A stretch of DNA of 30,887 bases. Source: Escherichia coli. Lineage in GTDB: Bacteria; Pseudomonadota; Gammaproteobacteria; Enterobacterales; Enterobacteriaceae. This document shows positions 388-27,360 of the stretch, piece by piece. Where the stretch lies: assembly GCF_003334785.1 (NCBI RefSeq), contig NZ_QOWV01000027.1; one strand, 5' to 3'. Positions within the stretch are counted from its first letter, which is position 1. Each line of letters starts with the position of its first letter. A model generated the notes under the pieces. It worked only from the letters and a program-made list of their open reading frames with translations, ran no database searches and had not been told where the DNA came from. Position numbers and translations under genes: made by a program.

Positions 388-1977
388 ATGCAACAACGTC
401 GTCCAGTCCGCCGCGCTCTGCTCAGTGTTTCTGACAAAGCCGGTATCGTCGAATTCGCCCAGGCACTTTCCGCACGCGGTGTGGAGCTGCTGTCTACAGG
501 GGGCACTGCCCGTCTGTTAGCAGAAAAAGGTCTGCCGGTAACCGAAGTTTCCGATTACACCGGTTTCCCGGAGATGATGGATGGACGCGTGAAGACCCTG
601 CATCCGAAAGTACATGGTGGCATTCTGGGCCGTCGCGGCCAGGACGATGCCATTATGGAAGAACATCAGATCCAGCCTATCGATATGGTGGTTGTTAACC
701 TGTATCCGTTCGCCCAGACCGTGGCCCGTGAAGGTTGCTCGCTGGAAGATGCGGTTGAGAACATCGATATCGGCGGCCCAACGATGGTGCGCTCCGCCGC
801 CAAGAACCATAAAGATGTCGCAATCGTGGTGAAGAGCAGCGACTATGACGCCATTATTAAAGAGATGGATGACAACGAAGGATCGCTGACGCTTGCAACC
901 CGTTTCGACCTCGCCATCAAAGCCTTCGAACACACTGCCGCCTACGACAGCATGATTGCCAACTACTTCGGCAGCATGGTTCCGGCTTACCACGGTGAAA
1001 GCAAAGAAGCCGCCGGTCGCTTCCCACGCACGCTGAACCTGAACTTCATTAAGAAGCTGGATATGCGTTACGGCGAGAACAGCCACCAGCAGGCTGCCTT
1101 CTATATAGAAGAGAATGTGAAAGAAGCCTCCGTTGCTACCGCAACCCAGGTTCAGGGTAAAGCCCTCTCTTATAACAACATCGCCGATACCGATGCGGCG
1201 CTGGAGTGCGTGAAAGAGTTCGCCGAGCCGGCATGTGTGATTGTGAAGCACGCCAACCCTTGCGGCGTGGCTATCGGCAATTCCATTCTTGATGCTTACG
1301 ATCGCGCGTACAAAACCGACCCAACCTCCGCATTCGGCGGCATCATTGCCTTTAACCGCGAGCTGGATGCGGAAACCGCACAGGCCATCATTTCTCGTCA
1401 GTTTGTCGAAGTGATTATTGCGCCGTCCGCCAGCGAAGAAGCCCTGAAAATCACCGCCGCCAAACAGAACGTACGCGTTCTGACCTGCGGTCAGTGGGGC
1501 GAGCGTGTTCCGGGCCTCGATTTCAAACGCGTGAACGGCGGTCTGCTGGTTCAGGATCGTGACCTGGGGATGGTCGGTGCGGAAGAACTGCGCGTGGTGA
1601 CCAAACGTCAGCCGAGCGAACAGGAACTGCGTGATGCGCTGTTCTGCTGGAAGGTGGCGAAGTTTGTGAAATCCAACGCTATCGTCTATGCCAAAAACAA
1701 TATGACTATCGGCATTGGCGCGGGCCAGATGAGCCGCGTGTACTCCGCAAAAATCGCCGGTATTAAAGCGGCCGATGAAGGCCTGGAAGTGAAAGGTTCC
1801 TCGATGGCTTCTGACGCGTTCTTCCCGTTCCGCGACGGTATTGATGCCGCCGCCGCTGCGGGCGTGACCTGCGTAATCCAGCCTGGCGGTTCTATCCGTG
1901 ATGACGAAGTGATTGCCGCCGCCGACGAGCACGGTATTGCGATGCTCTTCACCGACATGCGCCACTTCCGCCATTAA
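388..1977 (+). CDS. purH: Bifunctional AICAR transformylase / IMP cyclohydrolase
   Basis: 529 aa ORF, N-terminus [27 protein letters not shown] (MGS-like domain); ATG at 388 with AGGGGA Shine-Dalgarno 7 nt upstream; length identical to E. coli PurH. Confidence 0.97.
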
Positions 1978-1988
1978 TGGAGCAATAG

Positions 1989-3278
1989 ATGAAAGTATTA
2001 GTGATTGGTAACGGCGGGCGCGAGCACGCGCTGGCCTGGAAAGCGGTCCAGTCGCCGCTGGTTGAGACTGTTTTTGTTGCTCCGGGTAATGCAGGCACTG
2101 CACTGGAACCCGCGCTGCAAAACGTTGCTATTGGCGTGACCGATATCCCGGCGCTGTTGGATTTCGCACAAAACGAAAAGATTGATCTGACCATCGTCGG
2201 CCCGGAAGCGCCGCTGGTGAAAGGCGTGGTCGATACCTTCCGCGCCGCCGGGCTGAAAATCTTCGGCCCAACCGCAGGTGCGGCCCAACTGGAAGGCTCA
2301 AAAGCGTTTACCAAAGATTTCCTGGCCCGCCATAAGATCCCTACGGCGGAATACCAGAACTTCACCGAGGTAGAACCTGCGCTGGCGTATCTGCGTGAGA
2401 AAGGCGCGCCAATCGTCATTAAAGCGGACGGTCTGGCTGCCGGGAAAGGCGTTATCGTGGCGATGACGCTGGAAGAAGCGGAAGCGGCTGTTCACGATAT
2501 GCTGGCGGGCAACGCTTTTGGCGACGCGGGTCATCGCATCGTTATCGAAGAGTTCCTCGATGGCGAAGAAGCGAGCTTTATCGTGATGGTGGACGGCGAG
2601 CATGTGCTGCCGATGGCTACCAGCCAGGATCACAAACGCGTAGGCGATAAAGATACCGGACCAAACACCGGCGGGATGGGCGCTTACTCCCCCGCGCCGG
2701 TAGTAACCGATGACGTTCATCAGCGCACCATGGAACGTATTATCTGGCCAACCGTGAAAGGCATGGCGGCGGAAGGCAACACCTACACCGGTTTTCTCTA
2801 CGCGGGCCTGATGATCGACAAACAGGGCAATCCGAAGGTTATTGAATTTAACTGCCGCTTTGGCGATCCGGAAACCCAGCCGATTATGCTGCGCATGAAG
2901 TCCGATCTGGTTGAGCTCTGCCTGGCGGCCTGTGAAAGCAAACTGGACGAGAAAACGTCCGAGTGGGATGAACGCGCTTCTCTCGGCGTGGTGATGGCTG
3001 CGGGTGGATATCCGGGTGATTACCGCACCGGTGACGTGATCCACGGCCTGCCGCTGGAAGAAGTGGCAGGCGGCAAAGTGTTCCACGCGGGCACAAAACT
3101 GGCGGATGACGAGCAGGTAGTGACCAACGGCGGGCGCGTACTGTGCGTCACCGCGCTGGGTCATACCGTGGCAGAAGCGCAGAAACGCGCCTATGCCTTA
3201 ATGACCGATATCCACTGGGACGACTGCTTCTGCCGGAAAGATATCGGCTGGCGCGCTATCGAACGCGAGCAGAACTAA
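1989..3278 (+). CDS. purD: Phosphoribosylamine-glycine ligase (GAR synthetase)
   Basis: 429 aa, MKVLVIGNGGREHALAWKA N-terminus, ATP-grasp fold; 11 nt downstream of purH stop (operon). Confidence 0.97.
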   Translation: MKVLVIGNGGREHALAWKAVQSPLVETVFVAPGNAGTALEPALQNVAIGVTDIPALLDFAQNEKIDLTIVGPEAPLVKGVVDTFRAAGLKIFGPTAGAAQLEGSKAFTKDFLARHKIPTAEYQNFTEVEPALAYLREKGAPIVIKADGLAAGKGVIVAMTLEEAEAAVHDMLAGNAFGDAGHRIVIEEFLDGEEASFIVMVDGEHVLPMATSQDHKRVGDKDTGPNTGGMGAYSPAPVVTDDVHQRTMERIIWPTVKGMAAEGNTYTGFLYAGLMIDKQGNPKVIEFNCRFGDPETQPIMLRMKSDLVELCLAACESKLDEKTSEWDERASLGVVMAAGGYPGDYRTGDVIHGLPLEEVAGGKVFHAGTKLADDEQVVTNGGRVLCVTALGHTVAEAQKRAYALMTDIHWDDCFCRKDIGWRAIEREQN

Positions 3279-4600
3279 CGCGACAGTTTTGCCAATAGCG
3301 TTTTGCGCGTGATCCCTAACTGACGGGCGGCTTCGGTTTTGTTGCCGCCCGTTTTCTCCAGCGCCGCCAGAATCACCTCTTTTTCCACTTCCACCAACGG
3401 CTGAATATCCTGACTTTGTCCCAGCGGGATCGGCGTACTGGCAATCGCCAGCGGCAGCTCGCGTTCGGAAATATATTCCCCGGTCAGCAGCACCACTGCC
3501 CGTTCCACCGCGTTTTCCAGCTCACGAATATTTCCCGGCCAGTCGTAATGAATCAACAGATCCATCGCCTGGGGCGTAAAACCTTTTACCGCCTTGCGAT
3601 TACGCTCGGCAAAGCGCTGCAGAAAATGGCCAGCCAGCAGAGGGATATCTTCCCGCCGTTGCCGCAGCGATGGTACTTCAATCGCCACCACATTCAGGCG
3701 ATAGTAGAGATCCTGGCGAAAACGCCCGGCATTCACCTCTGCGGCAAGATCGCGATGGGTCGCCGCAATCAGCCGGACATCAACCGAGATAATCTGGTTG
3801 CTACCGACACGCTGAACTTCGCGCTCCTGAATCGCACGCAGCAGACGCACCTGCATCATCGGCGAGATATCGCCAATTTCATCGAGAAACAGCGTGCCGC
3901 CGTCCGCCTCAACAAAGCGCCCTTCCCGGCGTTTATCGGCTCCAGTAAACGCCCCTTTTTCGTGACCGAACAATTCAGATTCCAGCAAGGATTCGTTGAG
4001 TGCCGCACAGTTGAGCGTTACCAGCGGTTTTTCGCTACGTGCGCTACTGGCGTGAATCGCCCTGGCGACCAGCTCTTTACCGGTGCCGGAATCGCCGTGG
4101 ATCAGTACCGTGGCTTCCGATGGCGCGACGAGGGCGATTTCACTGAGCAGGTGTTGCATCGCCGGGCTTTTACCGACCATACCGAACTGGCTGGCAGTCA
4201 CCGCAGGTGTTTCAGCATCAATACTGTGCGTATGCGCGAGCGCTTTTTCCAGCGTCGCCTGTAGGTTATCGAAATCCAGCGGCTTGATGAGATAATCCAG
4301 CGCCCCAGTTTTCAGTGCCTCTACCGCCGTCTCGACGCTGGAGTACGCAGTCATAATCAGCACCGGAATTGCCGGGTTTAACGCTTTGATCTCTTTCAGC
4401 GTGGCGATGCCGTCCATCTCCGCCATTCGCACATCGCAAAGCACAAGATCAAAAACCTGTTCCCGCACCTGCTCCAACGCCTGTCGCCCGCTGTTCGCCA
4501 GCGCGACGTTATAGCCCCAGCCGCGCAGTAAAGCCTGCAAAATAGTGCAGTGGCTAATGTCATCATCCACCACCAGAATATCGATATTATCGTGCGTCAT
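3275..4600 (-). CDS. zraR: Sigma54-dependent two-component response regulator (receiver + AAA+ sigma54 activator + HTH)
   Basis: 441 aa; receiver domain (DILVVDDD...D...K), Walker [15 protein letters not shown] sigma54-contact motif, C-terminal Fis-type HTH; stop overlaps the purD stop convergently (CTAA). Confidence 0.95.
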
Positions 4601-5994
4601 CCTTGTGGGTCCTTACGCGTAATATTGACCGGAAGCCAGAGGGTGAACGTTGAGCCTTTTCCCTCCTGGCTTGCGACCTGAATTGTACCACCGTGTTGTT
4701 CAACAATATTATGCACGACCGCCAGCCCCAATCCGGTGCCTTCGGCTTTAGTGGTGAAGTACGGAGTGAAGATGGCATCAAGCTGATCTGCCGCAATTCC
4801 CTTACCGCTGTCGGTAACGCTGATTTTCACGCCCGCGCCGCTTTCGCTGGCCGTCACGCTAATCACGCCATGCTGACCAATCGCCTGAATAGCATTGAGA
4901 TAGAGATTCAACAGGACCTGAGTCAGCCTGTCCGGGTCGGCCTGAATTTCCGGTAATGTGTCGTTGGCGGTAAAGCGTAACTGGATCTCCCGGCTGTTTG
5001 CATCCTGACTTACCAGCTGTAATGAGTGGTTAATCAGCGTGTTGAGATCCACCGCCTGCAAAGCCAGATGCGTTGGCTTAACCAGTTCCAGCAACTCGCT
5101 TACCACGCGGTTTAAACGGTCGGCCTCTTTCGCCATCACCTGCGCCAGTTGATGCGCTTCTCCCCCTGCAGGCGCGCGCTCGGCAAAGTATTTCGCCAGT
5201 CCTTTAATCGAGGAAAGTGGGTTACGGATTTCGTGGGCAACGCCTGCCGCAAGATGCCCCAGCGCCACCAGCTTCTCTTTGCGCTTCATTTCGTCTTGTA
5301 GAAGCTGGCGCGAGCGCAGATAGCGGCGATACCAGAAGAATGACAATACGCTTGCCAGCAAGACCGTCGCCAGGGCGAAGAGGATAATCAGGGTATTGCG
5401 CTTTTCCCCACTCTGGGTTGCAACCAGATCACTGGCATCAACGGCGATAAAAATAGCCTGTTGTGCATCTACTTGTGGCACAGCTTTGCCGTTACAGCGC
5501 GGCATATTGTGCATTCCATGCCGCCAGGGCGCTGACATTGGCTGGAACAAACGATAGACCTCAAGTGCAGGCGTAGTTTCCGTTTTCCCAAGCAGCCGCC
5601 AGCGGGAGTTTTCCTCTGGCTTTAATTTCTGCATTTCATCCGGCGAATAGAGCGCACGCCCGACCTTATCGGGGTCGCTATGAAGAATAATGATGCCCTG
5701 CGCATCGGTGACTGCGAACCACAACACTCCCGGCTGTCCCGCCATCTCTTCCAGAAGCGCCTGTTGCTGTACATGGTGCATTCGCATCCCCATCCCTACG
5801 CGGCTTCCCGACTCCAGAGCGCGGATAAGCACATTACCTTTTTCCAGTAATGCCTGGCGGTCTGCCTCGCTTGCCCGCCCATAATCACGAATCACAGTTA
5901 CCGCAAACAATCCCACCAGCCCAACAATGACCACGGGGAGGATCGCGCTTAACCATTTAGCTAAGGAGTCTTTAGAACGTTGCATAAAACGCAT
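4597..5994 (-). CDS. zraS: Sensor histidine kinase of the ZraSR (HydHG) system
   Basis: 465 aa; two TM segments flanking a periplasmic domain, H-box LAAGVAHEIRNPL, HATPase motifs; ATGA overlap with zraR start (translational coupling). Confidence 0.95.
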   Translation of the reverse strand: MRFMQRSKDSLAKWLSAILPVVIVGLVGLFAVTVIRDYGRASEADRQALLEKGNVLIRALESGSRVGMGMRMHHVQQQALLEEMAGQPGVLWFAVTDAQGIIILHSDPDKVGRALYSPDEMQKLKPEENSRWRLLGKTETTPALEVYRLFQPMSAPWRHGMHNMPRCNGKAVPQVDAQQAIFIAVDASDLVATQSGEKRNTLIILFALATVLLASVLSFFWYRRYLRSRQLLQDEMKRKEKLVALGHLAAGVAHEIRNPLSSIKGLAKYFAERAPAGGEAHQLAQVMAKEADRLNRVVSELLELVKPTHLALQAVDLNTLINHSLQLVSQDANSREIQLRFTANDTLPEIQADPDRLTQVLLNLYLNAIQAIGQHGVISVTASESGAGVKISVTDSGKGIAADQLDAIFTPYFTTKAEGTGLGLAVVHNIVEQHGGTIQVASQEGKGSTFTLWLPVNITRKDPQG

Positions 5995-6025
5995 CTTCTT
6001 CTTTGCCTGCTCATCCCTTTCTGAC

Positions 6026-6041
6026 AGCAGAAATCATGCCA
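6026..6041 (-). promoter_or_regulatory. Sigma54 (-24/-12) promoter for zraSR
   Basis: Minus strand reads TGGCATGATTTCTGCT: GG-N10-GC spacing exact, about 20 nt upstream of the zraS start. Confidence 0.55.
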
Positions 6042-6092
6042 TCTTTTATCAGCGCTTACCCTGCGCTGTAACACAAAGGCTTAAGTTTCAAT

Positions 6093-6138
6093 GAGTAAAA
6101 ATGACTCGCTACCCGCAGCAGGCGAGTCATTTTTACTC
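6093..6138. promoter_or_regulatory. ZraR enhancer: inverted repeat of two 17-bp half-sites between divergent sigma54 promoters
   Basis: GAGTAAAAATGACTCGC (6093..6109) and its exact reverse complement GCGAGTCATTTTTACTC (6122..6138) separated by 12 bp; position and symmetry match the described ZraR binding region of zraP/zraSR. Confidence 0.7.
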
Positions 6139-6180
6139 GTTTATCATGCCAGATTACCCGTCATATCAGCGTTTCATCGT

Positions 6181-6196
6181 TGGCACGGAAGATGCA
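6181..6196 (+). promoter_or_regulatory. Sigma54 (-24/-12) promoter for zraP
   Basis: TGGCACGGAAGATGCA: consensus TGGCACG-N4-TTGCA with GG-N10-GC spacing; about 36 nt upstream of the zraP ATG (6232) with GGAGG SD at 6220..6224. Confidence 0.75.
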
Positions 6197-6231
6197 ATAC
6201 CCGAAGTAAGACAACCACTGGAGGATTAACC

Positions 6232-6657
6232 ATGAAACGGAACACGAAAATTGCCCTGGTAATGATGGCGCTTTCAGCAATGGCGATGGGATCGACATCT
6301 GCATTTGCTCACGGCGGACACGGTATGTGGCAGCAAAATGCCGCGCCTTTGACCAGCGAACAACAGACAGCGTGGCAGAAAATCCATAATGACTTTTACG
6401 CTCAAAGCAGCGCACTGCAACAGCAACTGGTGACGAAGCGTTATGAATACAATGCCCTGTTAGCCGCGAACCCACCGGATAGCAGCAAAATTAACGCGGT
6501 CGCCAAAGAGATGGAGAATTTGCGTCAGTCGTTAGATGAGTTACGGGTGAAACGAGATATCGCGATGGCTGAAGCGGGTATTCCGCGCGGAGCCGGAATG
6601 GGCATGGGCTACGGCGGCTGCGGTGGTGGCGGTCATATGGGTATGGGCCACTGGTAA
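6232..6657 (+). CDS. zraP: Zinc-resistance-associated periplasmic protein (CpxP/Spy family chaperone)
   Basis: 141 aa starting MKRNTKIALVMMALSAMAMGSTSAFA (signal peptide); Gly/Met/His-rich C-terminal tail GAGMGMGYGGCGGGGHMGMGHW. The six-frame track ORF 6091..6657 is an in-frame upstream extension lacking RBS and overlapping the ZraR boxes. Confidence 0.93.
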   Translation: MKRNTKIALVMMALSAMAMGSTSAFAHGGHGMWQQNAAPLTSEQQTAWQKIHNDFYAQSSALQQQLVTKRYEYNALLAANPPDSSKINAVAKEMENLRQSLDELRVKRDIAMAEAGIPRGAGMGMGYGGCGGGGHMGMGHW

Positions 6658-6658
6658 A

Positions 6659-7360
6659 TCAGAACGTTTTCTCGTTGGGTTGCCAGCGACAGAAATCAGA
6701 GTTTGCCACTAACAGTAATTGCGAACCTTCGGGCGCTTCCAGCCATGCCACGCTGACATCAACAGAAGAGCGGCTCTGGCGGCGCTCGATATGCGCTATC
6801 GCCTGCGAATCTAAATCAGGTTTAATGGTTTGCCCTTCGCAGGTGGTCACGGTCTGTTCCATCGCATGCCAGCGCCCCTGGCGCAGCACGACTCTCCCCT
6901 GACGTAAGGCATCGCTAATCTGGCGGATCTGATCAGCACGATAACGGTATAAATCGATTTGGTCGTTAGAAAGCTGCTGCTTTTCCCCATCGGATTCACG
7001 TTGCATAAAGCTCAGATCACCGCGATCGTCAAAACGCGCGCGAATATTCACCGGCGGTTTGCTGTAAACATTGATATTGATGAGCGTGAGGTTATCGCCC
7101 TGCCAGCGATACTCTCGCGTCGTGGTATCGCCACTGCGCCACGGGCTAAACACGGCAAGCAGATGCACATTATCGCCGCTGTCTTTTCGCCAGATGCGTA
7201 CCGCGCCCTGGTCTTCAGCAAATCCACTGGCGGTAAAGGGAGGAAGTGAAGAGTTATGACTACAGGCAGTGAGAAGCAGAGCGCCAGCCAGCATCAATGA
7301 TCGACGCCAGAAAGACAAAAGGGGTGAAACCACCCCTTCGTTAAAACTGTTCACTGCCAC
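6659..7360 (-). CDS. yjaH: DUF1481-family putative lipoprotein
   Basis: ORF with RR n-region, hydrophobic core LMLAGALLL and lipobox LLTAC; track start at 7360 is GTG; alternative in-frame starts at 7354 (GTG) and 7294 (ATG). Start uncertain because the hupA terminator hairpin lies within the 5' end of this ORF. Confidence 0.8.
   Translation of the reverse strand: MAVNSFNEGVVSPLLSFWRRSLMLAGALLLTACSHNSSLPPFTASGFAEDQGAVRIWRKDSGDNVHLLAVFSPWRSGDTTTREYRWQGDNLTLININVYSKPPVNIRARFDDRGDLSFMQRESDGEKQQLSNDQIDLYRYRADQIRQISDALRQGRVVLRQGRWHAMEQTVTTCEGQTIKPDLDSQAIAHIERRQSRSSVDVSVAWLEAPEGSQLLLVANSDFCRWQPNEKTF
7311..7336 (-). terminator. Rho-independent terminator downstream of hupA
   Basis: Minus-strand RNA: GGGGUG-GUUU-CACCCC followed by UUUUGUCUUU, about 30 nt after the hupA stop. 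Confidence 0.7.
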
Positions 7361-7366
7361 GCAATC

Positions 7367-7639
7367 TTACTTAACTGCGTCTTTCAGTGCCTTGCCAGAA
7401 ACAAATGCCGGTACGTTAGCTGCGGCAATTTTGATTTCTTTACCGGTCTGCGGGTTGCGGCCAGTACGCTCAGCGCGGTGGTTCACTTTGAAGGTACCGA
7501 AACCAACCAGTTGTACAGCATCGCCTTCTTTCAGAGACTCAGTAATTGCAGCCAGAGTGGACTCCAGAGCAGCTTTAGCCTGGGTTTTGGACAGTTCTGC
7601 TTTCTCTGCAATTACATCAATCAGTTGAGTCTTGTTCAT
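7367..7639 (-). CDS. hupA: DNA-binding protein HU-alpha
   Basis: 90 aa [71 protein letters not shown]; AAGGA SD upstream. Confidence 0.98.
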
Positions 7640-11622: not shown

Positions 11623-11648
11623 GCCCCATTTGCGGGGCTAATTTCTTG
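11623..11648 (+). terminator. Possible weak terminator / hairpin after rsd
   Basis: GCCCC-ATTTGC-GGGGC followed by TAATTTCTT; short stem and interrupted U-tract. Confidence 0.3.
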
Positions 11649-11740
11649 TCGGAGTGCCTTAACTGGCTGAGACCGTTTATTCGGGATCCGCGGAACCTGA
11701 TCAGGCTAATACCTGCGAAGGGAACAAGAGTTAATCTGCT
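11640..11740 (+). ncRNA. TPP (thiamine pyrophosphate) riboswitch, thi-box aptamer in the thiC leader
   Basis: Contains the conserved thi-box elements GGAGUGCC ... CUGAGA ... GGAACCUGAUCAGGCUAAUACCUGCGAAGGGAA; located 80-180 nt upstream of thiC ATG; followed by a second hairpin ATCGCC-CCTGC-GGCGAT (11748..11764) plausibly part of the expression platform. Aptamer boundaries approximate. Confidence 0.9.
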
Positions 11741-17432: not shown

Positions 17433-17600
17433 GAAAATAAGAACACATGTTCTCATCTTCCAGGATGCAGCAGACTGAAGAAATTCAGACATCCCGCAAC
17501 CTGCGATTATCGCAAGGTCAAGGCAAAGTCCGGTAATGGCGTTCTGAATACCAGAGATAATTCTCTGGCGAAACCCACCTTAAGGTGGGTTTTGTTATTT
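17433..17600 (+). ncRNA. sroH: Candidate small RNA (SroH-like) in the thiH/htrC convergent spacer, ending at an intrinsic terminator
   Basis: Promoter as above plus terminator AACCCACC-UUAA-GGUGGGUU followed by UUGUUAUUUU (17572..17600) define an approximately 165-nt non-coding transcript; an sRNA named SroH of about this size has been reported between htrC and thiH in E. coli K-12 (recalled from literature, exact coordinates not verified). Confidence 0.55.
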
Positions 17601-26924: not shown

Positions 26925-26955
26925 AAAAAGGCTGGTGACTAAAAAGTCACCAGCC
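26925..26955 (-). terminator. rplL-rpoB intercistronic transcriptional attenuator
   Basis: Minus RNA: GGCUGGUGACU-UUUUA-GUCACCAGCC followed by UUUUUGC, about 40-70 nt after rplL stop; matches the classical partial terminator that sets the r-protein:RNAP ratio. Confidence 0.8.
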
Positions 26956-26994
26956 ATCAGCCTGATTTCTCAGGCTGCAACCGGAAGGGTTGGC

Positions 26995-27360
<366 letters not shown>

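What the first reader, a model, noticed from the sequence alone, without database searches (positions are those of the whole stretch)
3275..3278. Convergent purD and zraR share overlapping stop codons (CTAA)
The purD TAA (3276..3278) and the zraR TAG on the opposite strand (3275..3277) overlap by 2 nt, so the two convergent transcripts must overlap at their 3' ends with no intervening terminator. The same applies to zraP/yjaH, whose stops are separated by 1 nt (6655..6661). This is a potential source of antisense 3' overlap and transcriptional interference.
Basis: seen in the sequence. Interest (0 to 1): 0.25.

Follow-up and report, generated by a model that had tools for sequence, protein, structure and literature searches.

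The report
Ordinary overlapping stop codons, purD/zraR
Two E. coli genes that face each other (purD and zraR) share a four-base CTAA in which both stop codons sit; this is a common, already catalogued way of packing genes, and the signals that end each transcript lie inside the neighbouring gene.

Summary
The window is E. coli K-12. purD ends at TAA 3276-3278 and zraR (minus strand) at TAG 3275-3277. zraP and yjaH stops are 1 nt apart. This is not novel. CTAA is one of the four canonical stop-stop tetramers of convergent genes, and 58 convergent overlaps were counted in E. coli in 2007. Both pairs (zraR-purD, yjaH-zraP) are already listed as convergent "excludons" from RNA-seq (ExcludonFinder, 2025).

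Published +/-bicyclomycin data place Rho termination regions 266 nt past the zraR stop (antisense in purD) and 141 nt past the yjaH stop (antisense in zraP). "No terminator" is only literally true.

About 45 nt past the purD stop, inside zraR codons 417-426, sits a strong hairpin plus U-tract (3324-3359, plus strand). It is conserved in all 11 zra-carrying species examined. Its synonymous sites are almost frozen (1 of 5 variable, against 13 of 14 nearby). It is probably the purHD intrinsic terminator, but no mapped 3' end confirms this.

Species lacking zraPSR have purD and yjaH convergent across a 33-130 nt spacer in most cases, usually holding a hairpin. There is no evidence of regulatory cross-talk. 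Low interest.

The parts
1989..3278 (+). purD CDS (phosphoribosylamine-glycine ligase), last gene of purHD; stop TAA at 3276-3278
   Evidence: ORF list; RefSeq annotation of identical sequence and of MG1655
3275..4600 (-). zraR CDS (sigma-54-dependent response regulator); stop TAG is the reverse complement of 3275-3277
   Evidence: Pfam domains of homologues (Response_reg, Sigma54_activat, HTH_8)
3275..3278 (.). CTAA tetramer holding both stop codons (4-nt CDS overlap)
   Evidence: conserved in 11 of 11 zra-carrying species; canonical tetramer class (PMC2174442)
3324..3359 (+). Candidate intrinsic terminator of purHD embedded antisense in zraR codons 417-426 ([10 protein letters not shown]). 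Stem CGGGCGGC (3324-3331) pairs with GCCGCCCG (3344-3351), the loop is 12 nt, and the tail is TTTTCTCC (3352-3359). The predicted purHD 3' UTR is about 77-81 nt.
   Evidence: Fold: centroid hairpin, z = -3.0 for the 66-nt context. Ranks 5th of 390 T-tract sites in the window, stronger than the experimentally mapped hupA terminator. Consensus hairpin in 11 species. Synonymous sites frozen in the stem. No mapped 3' end found.
3009..3274 (-). zraSR read-through segment antisense to the purD 3' end. The published Rho termination region peaks at window 3009 (MG1655 4204911 +), 266 nt past the zraR stop.
   Evidence: Adams et al. 2021 supplementary file 2: Rho score 4.28, p = 5.7e-8; 35-40% C from about 100 to 300 nt downstream
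6232..6657 (+). zraP CDS (annotated 141 aa); stop TAA at 6655-6657
6659..7354 (-). yjaH CDS as annotated (DUF1481); stop TGA is the reverse complement of 6659-6661, 1 nt from the zraP stop
6518..6658 (-). yjaH read-through segment antisense to the Gly/Met-rich tail of zraP. It is C-rich and G-poor (40% C, 18% G), which is rut-like. The published Rho termination region peaks at window 6518 (MG1655 4201402 +), 141 nt past the yjaH stop.
   Evidence: Adams et al. 2021 supplementary file 2: Rho score 17.2, p = 9e-85; composition

Best explanation
This is an ordinary compact junction between convergent genes. The zraPSR cassette sits between the older convergent neighbours purHD and hupA-yjaH, leaving essentially no intergenic DNA at either end: a CTAA stop-stop overlap with purD, and 1-12 nt to yjaH in ten of the eleven species (Citrobacter werkmanii has a longer spacer). 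Because there is no spacer, each transcript runs into the partner gene and ends at signals embedded in that gene's coding sequence. (1) purHD most likely ends at an intrinsic terminator formed by zraR codons 417-426. Here GGC GGC (Gly-Gly) and GCC GCC (Ala-Ala) are reverse complements and make an 8-10 bp G+C stem, and the codons GAG AAA AC read as a U-tract on the purD strand. This step is inferred. (2) zraSR and (hupA-)yjaH transcripts become untranslated after their stop codons and are ended by Rho within about 270 and 140 nt. This is shown by published bicyclomycin data. The yjaH case is helped by the C-rich antisense of zraP's glycine-rich tail. The result is short, bounded sense/antisense overlaps (at most about 350 nt at purD/zraR) with no demonstrated regulatory role.
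For: Coordinates and annotation. Class is known: the CTAA/TTAA/CTAG/TTAG tetramers, 58 convergent overlaps in E. coli, and 19 of them with a predicted rho-independent terminator inside the partner CDS (PMC2174442). Transcript overlap is catalogued for both pairs (PMC12288877). Rho regions lie antisense in purD and zraP (PMC7815308 supplementary file 2). Composition: C/G = 2.16 in the first 141 nt past the yjaH stop. Hairpin. It is conserved in 11 of 11 species. Among four-fold degenerate sites in the last 43 zraR codons, 1 of 5 stem sites varies against 13 of 14 non-stem sites. The loop Thr codon shows all four bases. A hand-computed Fisher test on the table gives p about 0.006, or about 0.002 if the last codon (constrained by the purD stop) is set aside. 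In species lacking zraPSR, purD and yjaH are convergent, in most cases across a 33-130 nt spacer that usually holds a G+C hairpin, often with A/T runs on both sides. purHD is therefore normally followed closely by a hairpin terminator.
Against: No Term-seq 3' end is listed at the hairpin, or anywhere in MG1655 4204000-4204699, in the curated lists of Adams et al.. Those lists report no purHD 3' end at all, so this absence is uninformative rather than contrary. The U-tract is short (UUUUCUCC) and is interrupted in Klebsiella grimontii (UUCUUUC). The stem never covaries, so the support is conservation only. That conservation could reflect a role in the zraR mRNA, or local codon preference. The Rho score for zraSR is modest (4.28) and rests on low read counts (74/17 against 172/169).
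Confidence: 0.8

Rival explanations
1. Functional excludon. The 3' overlap is maintained by selection so that zraSR (or zraP) and purHD (or yjaH) repress each other, through head-on RNA polymerase collisions or RNase III cleavage of the sense/antisense duplex. This would couple purine synthesis to the zinc/envelope stress response.
For: Both pairs meet the coverage criteria of ExcludonFinder in at least half of 58 RNA-seq samples. The CTAA junction is conserved across 11 species. Rho-limited read-through shows that antisense RNA really is made over the partner's 3' end.
Against: Conservation of CTAA is expected without any regulatory role, because changing it would extend one of the two proteins. 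Only C/T is allowed at the first base and only A/G at the last base of the tetramer (the last ZraR codon must end in T or C). The overlaps are kept short by an embedded hairpin and by Rho. The zraP/yjaH spacing is not fixed: gaps of 1, 3 and 12 nt, and a longer spacer in Citrobacter werkmanii. The ZraR iModulon holds only zraR and zraP, and purD, purH and yjaH do not appear in that paper's main text. About 75% of convergent operons in E. coli overlap anyway (PMC4161252).
Confidence: 0.07
2. The hairpin in zraR is not a terminator. purHD transcription ends only by Rho (or by collision) further inside zraR, and the frozen synonymous sites reflect a constraint on the zraR mRNA or DNA, such as local structure, translation speed in the helix-turn-helix, or codon preference for GGC/GCC.
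For: No mapped 3' end at the site. The U-tract is imperfect. The stem shows no covariation. The purD read-through RNA beyond the hairpin is C-rich (33.5% C, 23% G over 3361-3700), so Rho could act there.
Against: The same amino acids elsewhere in the last 43 codons vary freely at third positions (Gly at -13, Ala at -29 and -5). The hairpin is followed by a U-run only on the purD strand; the zraR strand reads UCAGUUAGGG after it. It is thermodynamically stronger than the neighbouring hupA terminator, which gives a very strong Term-seq 3' end. zra-less relatives usually have a hairpin within about 15-60 nt of the purD stop.
Confidence: 0.3
3. Annotation artefact: one of the two stop codons is not the real end of a protein, so the overlap is not biological.
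For: None found.
Against: Both C-termini are conserved right up to the stop in 11 species: ZraR ends in ...RKTLLAK(L/I)(S/L)R* and PurD in ...(E/A)RE(Q/K) followed by one to three variable residues. Pfam architectures are complete. Independent gene callers give the same 4-nt overlap in 5 of 6 further genomes and 11 nt in the sixth.
Confidence: 0.01

Closest known systems
Convergent 4-nt stop-stop gene overlaps (CTAA/TTAA/CTAG/TTAG), as analysed by Lillo & Krakauer 2007 (PMC2174442)
   Same: It is exactly this class: two real genes on opposite strands whose stop codons share the central TA. That paper counts 58 convergent overlaps in E. coli and notes that rho-independent terminators must then lie inside the partner's coding sequence (predicted in 19 of the 58).
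   Different: Nothing essential. Here the embedded terminator candidate is pinned to specific codons and shown to be conserved at synonymous sites.
Convergent excludons / overlapping 3' ends of convergent operons (ExcludonFinder 2025, PMC12288877; Conway et al. 2014, PMC4161252)
   Same: The zraR-purD and yjaH-zraP pairs are named in the E. coli MG1655 'excludome'. 276 of 370 convergent operons overlap, by 286 nt on average.
   Different: The defining functional feature of an excludon, mutually exclusive expression, has not been shown for these pairs.
Rho-dependent termination of untranslated or antisense read-through (Adams et al. 2021, PMC7815308)
   Same: Bicyclomycin-sensitive regions lie just past the zraR and yjaH stops, antisense to purD and zraP. 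The yjaH case has a textbook C-rich, G-poor segment.
   Different: The exact release sites and rut sites are not mapped. The positions are maxima of an 800-nt window score.
Bidirectional intrinsic / collision-type terminators between convergent genes (Ju et al. 2019; 10.1101/2022.10.23.513370)
   Same: One hairpin near the meeting point of convergent transcription units. zra-less relatives have such intergenic hairpins, some flanked by A- and T-runs.
   Different: In E. coli the hairpin lies within zraR, has a U-run on one side only, and on the zraR strand is translated, so it is at most unidirectional.

Membership tests
Convergent 4-nt stop-stop overlap | The tetramer is one of CTAA, TTAA, CTAG or TTAG, with a stop codon read on each strand | tested here: met
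   CTAA at 3275-3278; tetramer list in PMC2174442
Convergent 4-nt stop-stop overlap | Both ORFs are genuine protein-coding genes that end at those stops | tested here: met
   RefSeq annotation; C-termini conserved to the stop in 11 species; full Pfam architectures
Excludon (convergent) | The transcripts of the two neighbouring genes overlap | not testable with these tools
   No RNA data here. Published: listed in the MG1655 excludome, and Rho regions lie inside the partner genes.
Excludon (convergent) | Mutually exclusive or reciprocal expression caused by the overlap | not testable with these tools
   No supporting report found. The ZraR iModulon holds only zraR and zraP, and purD, purH and yjaH are absent from that paper's main text.
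Intrinsic (Rho-independent) terminator, for the hairpin at 3324-3359 (+) | A stable G+C-rich stem-loop in the nascent RNA | tested here: met
   8-10 bp stem; hairpin -18.4 kcal/mol; 5th of 390 T-tract sites in the window
Intrinsic (Rho-independent) terminator, for the hairpin at 3324-3359 (+) | A U-tract directly after the stem | tested here: inconclusive
   UUUUCUCC in E. coli, UUUUUUC in most other species, UUCUUUC in K. grimontii. Short but within the range of known terminators. The built-in scan missed it because its loop limit is 8 nt.
Intrinsic (Rho-independent) terminator, for the hairpin at 3324-3359 (+) | Lies downstream of the last gene of an operon and is conserved | tested here: met
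   Starts 45 nt after the purD stop. Present in 11 of 11 species with stem synonymous sites frozen.
Intrinsic (Rho-independent) terminator, for the hairpin at 3324-3359 (+) | A mapped RNA 3' end in the U-tract that is independent of Rho | tested here: inconclusive
   No entry in the curated Term-seq tables of PMC7815308 for MG1655 4204000-4204699. Other data sets' supplements are not held or have no entry.
Rho-dependent terminator (minus-strand read-through of zraSR and yjaH) | Read-through increases when Rho is inhibited by bicyclomycin | not testable with these tools
   Published: Rho scores 4.28 (antisense purD) and 17.2 (antisense zraP)
Rho-dependent terminator (minus-strand read-through of zraSR and yjaH) | An untranslated, C-rich, G-poor upstream RNA (rut-like) | tested here: met
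   yjaH: 40% C and 18% G over 141 nt. zraR: weaker, 33% C and 28% G overall, with 35-40% C at 100-300 nt.
Bidirectional terminator between convergent genes | A hairpin flanked by an A-run upstream and a U-run downstream, so that it terminates on both strands | tested here: not met
   The upstream flank is CCCTAACTGA, so the zraR strand reads UCAGUUAGGG after the hairpin, and that strand is being translated

The most novel reading that the evidence does not exclude
The embedded hairpin and the Rho sites tune a real, condition-dependent antagonism. When purHD is derepressed (purine starvation), read-through past the zraR-embedded terminator, or polymerase collisions there, lower zraSR output. 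Conversely, zinc-induced zraSR and zraP transcription dampens purD and yjaH. This would be a functional excludon linking purine synthesis and envelope stress. It would have been created when zraPSR replaced the ancestral purD/yjaH spacer, and it would explain why the junction has stayed spacer-free across Enterobacteriaceae.
Probability: 0.06. Interest if true: 0.4.

Novelty: already known. Interest (0 to 1): 0.1.

Why it matters
It matters little beyond bookkeeping. The case is a clean textbook example of how a bacterial genome copes with zero intergenic space: one strand uses a terminator written in the synonymous sites of the neighbour's helix-turn-helix codons, and the other strand relies on Rho. 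It also cautions annotation and RNA-seq users that purHD, zraSR, zraP and yjaH 3' UTRs are antisense to their neighbours. Strand-unspecific expression data for these 3' ends are therefore confounded, and synonymous recoding of the zraR 3' end could alter purHD termination.

Tried and rejected
1. The built-in terminator scan found nothing at the junction. Its loop limit of 8 nt excludes the 12-nt loop, so I wrote my own T-tract/hairpin scan.

2. I looked for a mapped purHD 3' end. The curated tables of Adams et al. have none in MG1655 4204000-4204699. The TERMITe and SMRT-Cappable-seq supplements have no purD/zraR entries. Supplements of Dar & Sorek 2018, Choe 2022, Conway 2014, the Rend-seq paper and ExcludonFinder are not held.

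3. The first ZraR homology search returned only E. coli and E. albertii. I repeated it with the Kluyvera protein to reach other genera.

4. I searched the purD-yjaH spacers of zra-less species for remnants of zraPSR and found only chance 9-11 nt matches. The direction of change (gain or loss) stays open.

5. A control using distant ZraR-like genes not adjacent to purD was not informative. The Marinobacter homologue lacks the GGNKTEAAR motif, and the Erwinia psidii homologue yielded no usable C-terminal sequence in the stretch examined.

6. Rfam has no family at either junction.

7. No intrinsic-terminator-like site was found for zraP on the plus strand inside yjaH. Its 3' end remains unassigned.

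Full report
IDENTITY AND OBSERVATION. The window is E. coli K-12: stretch 2900-3700 is 100% identical to strain C600 and is present in 5421 of 5426 complete E. coli genomes. It is the reverse complement of MG1655 around 4.20 Mb, and the conversion is MG1655 coordinate = 4207920 minus window coordinate. The genes are purH 388..1977 (+), purD 1989..3278 (+), zraR 3275..4600 (-), zraS 4597..5994 (-), zraP 6232..6657 (+), yjaH 6659..7354 (-) and hupA 7367..7639 (-). Positions 3275-3278 read CTAA. TAA (3276-3278) ends purD, and CTA (3275-3277) is the complement of the zraR TAG. The zraP TAA (6655-6657) and the yjaH TGA (complement of 6659-6661) are 1 nt apart.

HOW UNUSUAL IT IS. It is not unusual. 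Lillo & Krakauer 2007 (PMC2174442) describe CTAA, TTAA, CTAG and TTAG as the four tetramers that end two genes on opposite strands. They count 58 convergent overlaps in E. coli. They point out that rho-independent terminators of such genes must lie in the partner's coding sequence, and they predict such terminators in 19 of the 58. Conway et al. 2014 found that 276 of 370 convergent operons in E. coli have complementary 3' ends, with a mean overlap of 286 nt. ExcludonFinder (PMC12288877) names both zraR-purD and yjaH-zraP among 165 convergent overlaps seen in at least half of 58 MG1655 RNA-seq samples. The observation and the idea of a 3' antisense overlap are thus already on record.

WHERE THE TRANSCRIPTS END, MINUS STRAND. 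Supplementary file 2 of Adams et al. 2021 (PMC7815308; DirectRNA-seq with and without bicyclomycin) lists two Rho termination regions here.
- The first is at MG1655 4204911 (+), classed as antisense to purD. Read counts upstream/downstream are 74/17 without the drug and 172/169 with it; the Rho score is 4.28 and p = 5.7e-8.
- The second is at 4201402 (+), antisense to zraP. Counts are 444/40 against 294/456; the score is 17.2 and p = 9e-85.
In window terms these are 3009 and 6518, which is 266 nt past the zraR stop and 141 nt past the yjaH stop. The yjaH read-through RNA is the antisense of zraP's Gly/Met-rich tail and is 40% C and 18% G, a rut-like composition. The zraR read-through reaches 35-40% C between about 100 and 300 nt. 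So the minus-strand transcripts do enter the partner genes and are stopped by Rho.

WHERE THE TRANSCRIPTS END, PLUS STRAND. A stem begins 45 nt after the purD stop: CGGGCGGC (3324-3331) pairs with GCCGCCCG (3344-3351) and is followed by TTTTCTCC (3352-3359).
- The 66-nt context folds at z = -3.0 against shuffles.
- In my own scan of all 390 T-tract sites on both strands of the window, the hairpin ranks 5th at -18.4 kcal/mol. That is above the hupA terminator (-13.6), which gives one of the strongest Term-seq 3' ends in the region.
- The hairpin is made by zraR codons 417-426 ([10 protein letters not shown] of the helix-turn-helix). GGC GGC and GCC GCC are reverse complements of each other, and GAG AAA AC supplies the U-run on the purD strand.
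- On the zraR strand the hairpin is followed by UCAGUUAGGG and lies in translated sequence, so it can act only on purHD.

COMPARATIVE EVIDENCE. A PurD-based scan of one genome per species returned 80 loci.
- In most Enterobacterales the layout is purH-purD facing yjaH-hupA. In most of these loci the spacer is 33-130 nt and usually holds a G+C hairpin, often with A- and T-runs on both sides.
- zraPSR is present only in a subset: Escherichia, Citrobacter werkmanii and Kluyvera. Look-ups of further ZraR orthologues added Klebsiella grimontii, Klebsiella aerogenes, Kluyvera intermedia, Phytobacter diazotrophicus, Kosakonia arachidis and one record labelled Enterobacter hormaechei.
- In all 11 zra-carrying species CTAA is retained. 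In K. aerogenes the purD stop has moved 7 nt, giving an 11-nt overlap.
- The yjaH-zraP gap is 1, 3 or 12 nt, with a longer spacer in Citrobacter werkmanii.
- The hairpin is present in all 11 species.
- Within the ungapped last 43 codons of zraR there are 19 four-fold degenerate sites with a conserved amino acid. Of the 5 that lie in the stem, 1 varies. Of the other 14, 13 vary, and the loop Thr codon shows all four bases. A hand-computed Fisher exact test on that table gives p about 0.006. The single invariant non-stem site is the last codon, CGT, which is constrained by the purD stop; leaving it out gives p about 0.002.
- There is no covariation, because the stem never changes. The support is therefore purifying selection on silent sites, not compensatory change.

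WHAT IS NOT SHOWN. No 3' end is listed at or near the hairpin in the curated Term-seq tables of Adams et al.. No purHD 3' end is reported there at all, so this is silence rather than contradiction. Other data sets were unavailable or had no entry. The zraP 3' end is unassigned: no terminator-like site follows it on the plus strand. No evidence links zra induction to purD or yjaH expression. The ZraR iModulon holds only zraR and zraP, and purD, purH and yjaH do not occur in that paper's main text. Rfam has nothing at either junction. No remnants of zraPSR were detected in the spacers of zra-less species, so whether the patchy distribution reflects gain or loss is open. The last one to three PurD residues differ between zra-carrying genomes (for example N, NR, NS, R, H) and zra-less genomes (for example GE, AK, GK). 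This places the boundary of the cassette within the last codons of purD.

VERDICT. A regulatory consequence is unproven. The finding is a member of a well-described class, and its interest is low. The only modestly new detail is the conserved purHD terminator candidate written into the silent sites of the zraR helix-turn-helix codons. I put the probability that it is the actual purHD terminator at about 0.6-0.65.

Noticed in passing
window 7315-7339 (- strand), inside annotated yjaH 6659..7354: The hupA intrinsic terminator (GAAGGGGTGGTTTCACCCCTTTT) lies within codons 6-13 of the annotated yjaH CDS. Its very strong Term-seq 3' end (MG1655 4200605, score 102752) is classed as 'internal' to yjaH, 39 nt in. 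Either yjaH is expressed only by read-through of this terminator, or its GTG start is mis-annotated. One gene caller starts the orthologue 60 nt later (210 aa).
   Followed up: partly
window 6096-6140, zraS-zraP divergent intergenic region: A near-perfect 17-bp inverted repeat (AGTAAAAATGACTCGC...GCGAGTCATTTTTACT) was the top hit of my hairpin scan. From prior knowledge it is probably the ZraR enhancer-binding palindrome rather than a terminator. The mechanical ORF 6091..6657 (188 aa) starts inside it, whereas the annotated zraP starts at 6232.
   Followed up: no
window 3275-6661, and loci L005-L040: The zraPSR cassette has a patchy distribution within Enterobacteriaceae and always sits exactly between the purD and yjaH stops. 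zra-less relatives have, in most cases, a 33-130 nt spacer that usually holds a hairpin instead. The last one to three PurD residues differ between the two states.
   Followed up: partly
L087 (Klebsiella aerogenes), 4822-4832: The purD stop is displaced by 7 nt (TGA), which gives an 11-nt overlap with zraR while the CTAA is still present.
   Followed up: yes
L003 (Escherichia albertii NBRC 107761), about 3845: The zraR match is split into two frames (residues 1-262 and 263-441, 1 nt apart). This is either a frameshift (pseudogene) or an assembly error. The CTAA and the hairpin are intact.
   Followed up: partly
hit H1, NZ_AP025180.1 (E. coli JP538): The match to window 2900-3700 is in two pieces separated by an IS1A element. 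The annotation there reads 'helix-turn-helix domain-containing protein' plus 'sigma 54-interacting transcriptional regulator'. This suggests that IS1 split the 3' end of zraR in this strain.
   Followed up: no
L030 (Citrobacter werkmanii), just downstream of the zraP stop: A longer spacer between zraP and yjaH (more than 30 nt) contains a REP-like sequence (GCCTGATGGCGCTACGC...). The zraP/yjaH abutment is therefore not obligatory.
   Followed up: no
window 4597-4600: zraS and zraR overlap by the usual co-directional ATGA, read on the minus strand (TCAT on the plus strand), which is typical of translational coupling.
   Followed up: no
window 11640-11740 (+), 17433-17593 (+), 26929-26990 (-): Rfam matches elsewhere in the window: a TPP riboswitch, the sroH sRNA and the P26 RNA. 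The region around 26929-26995 also holds strong hairpins with T-runs on both strands, which looks like a bidirectional terminator.
   Followed up: no
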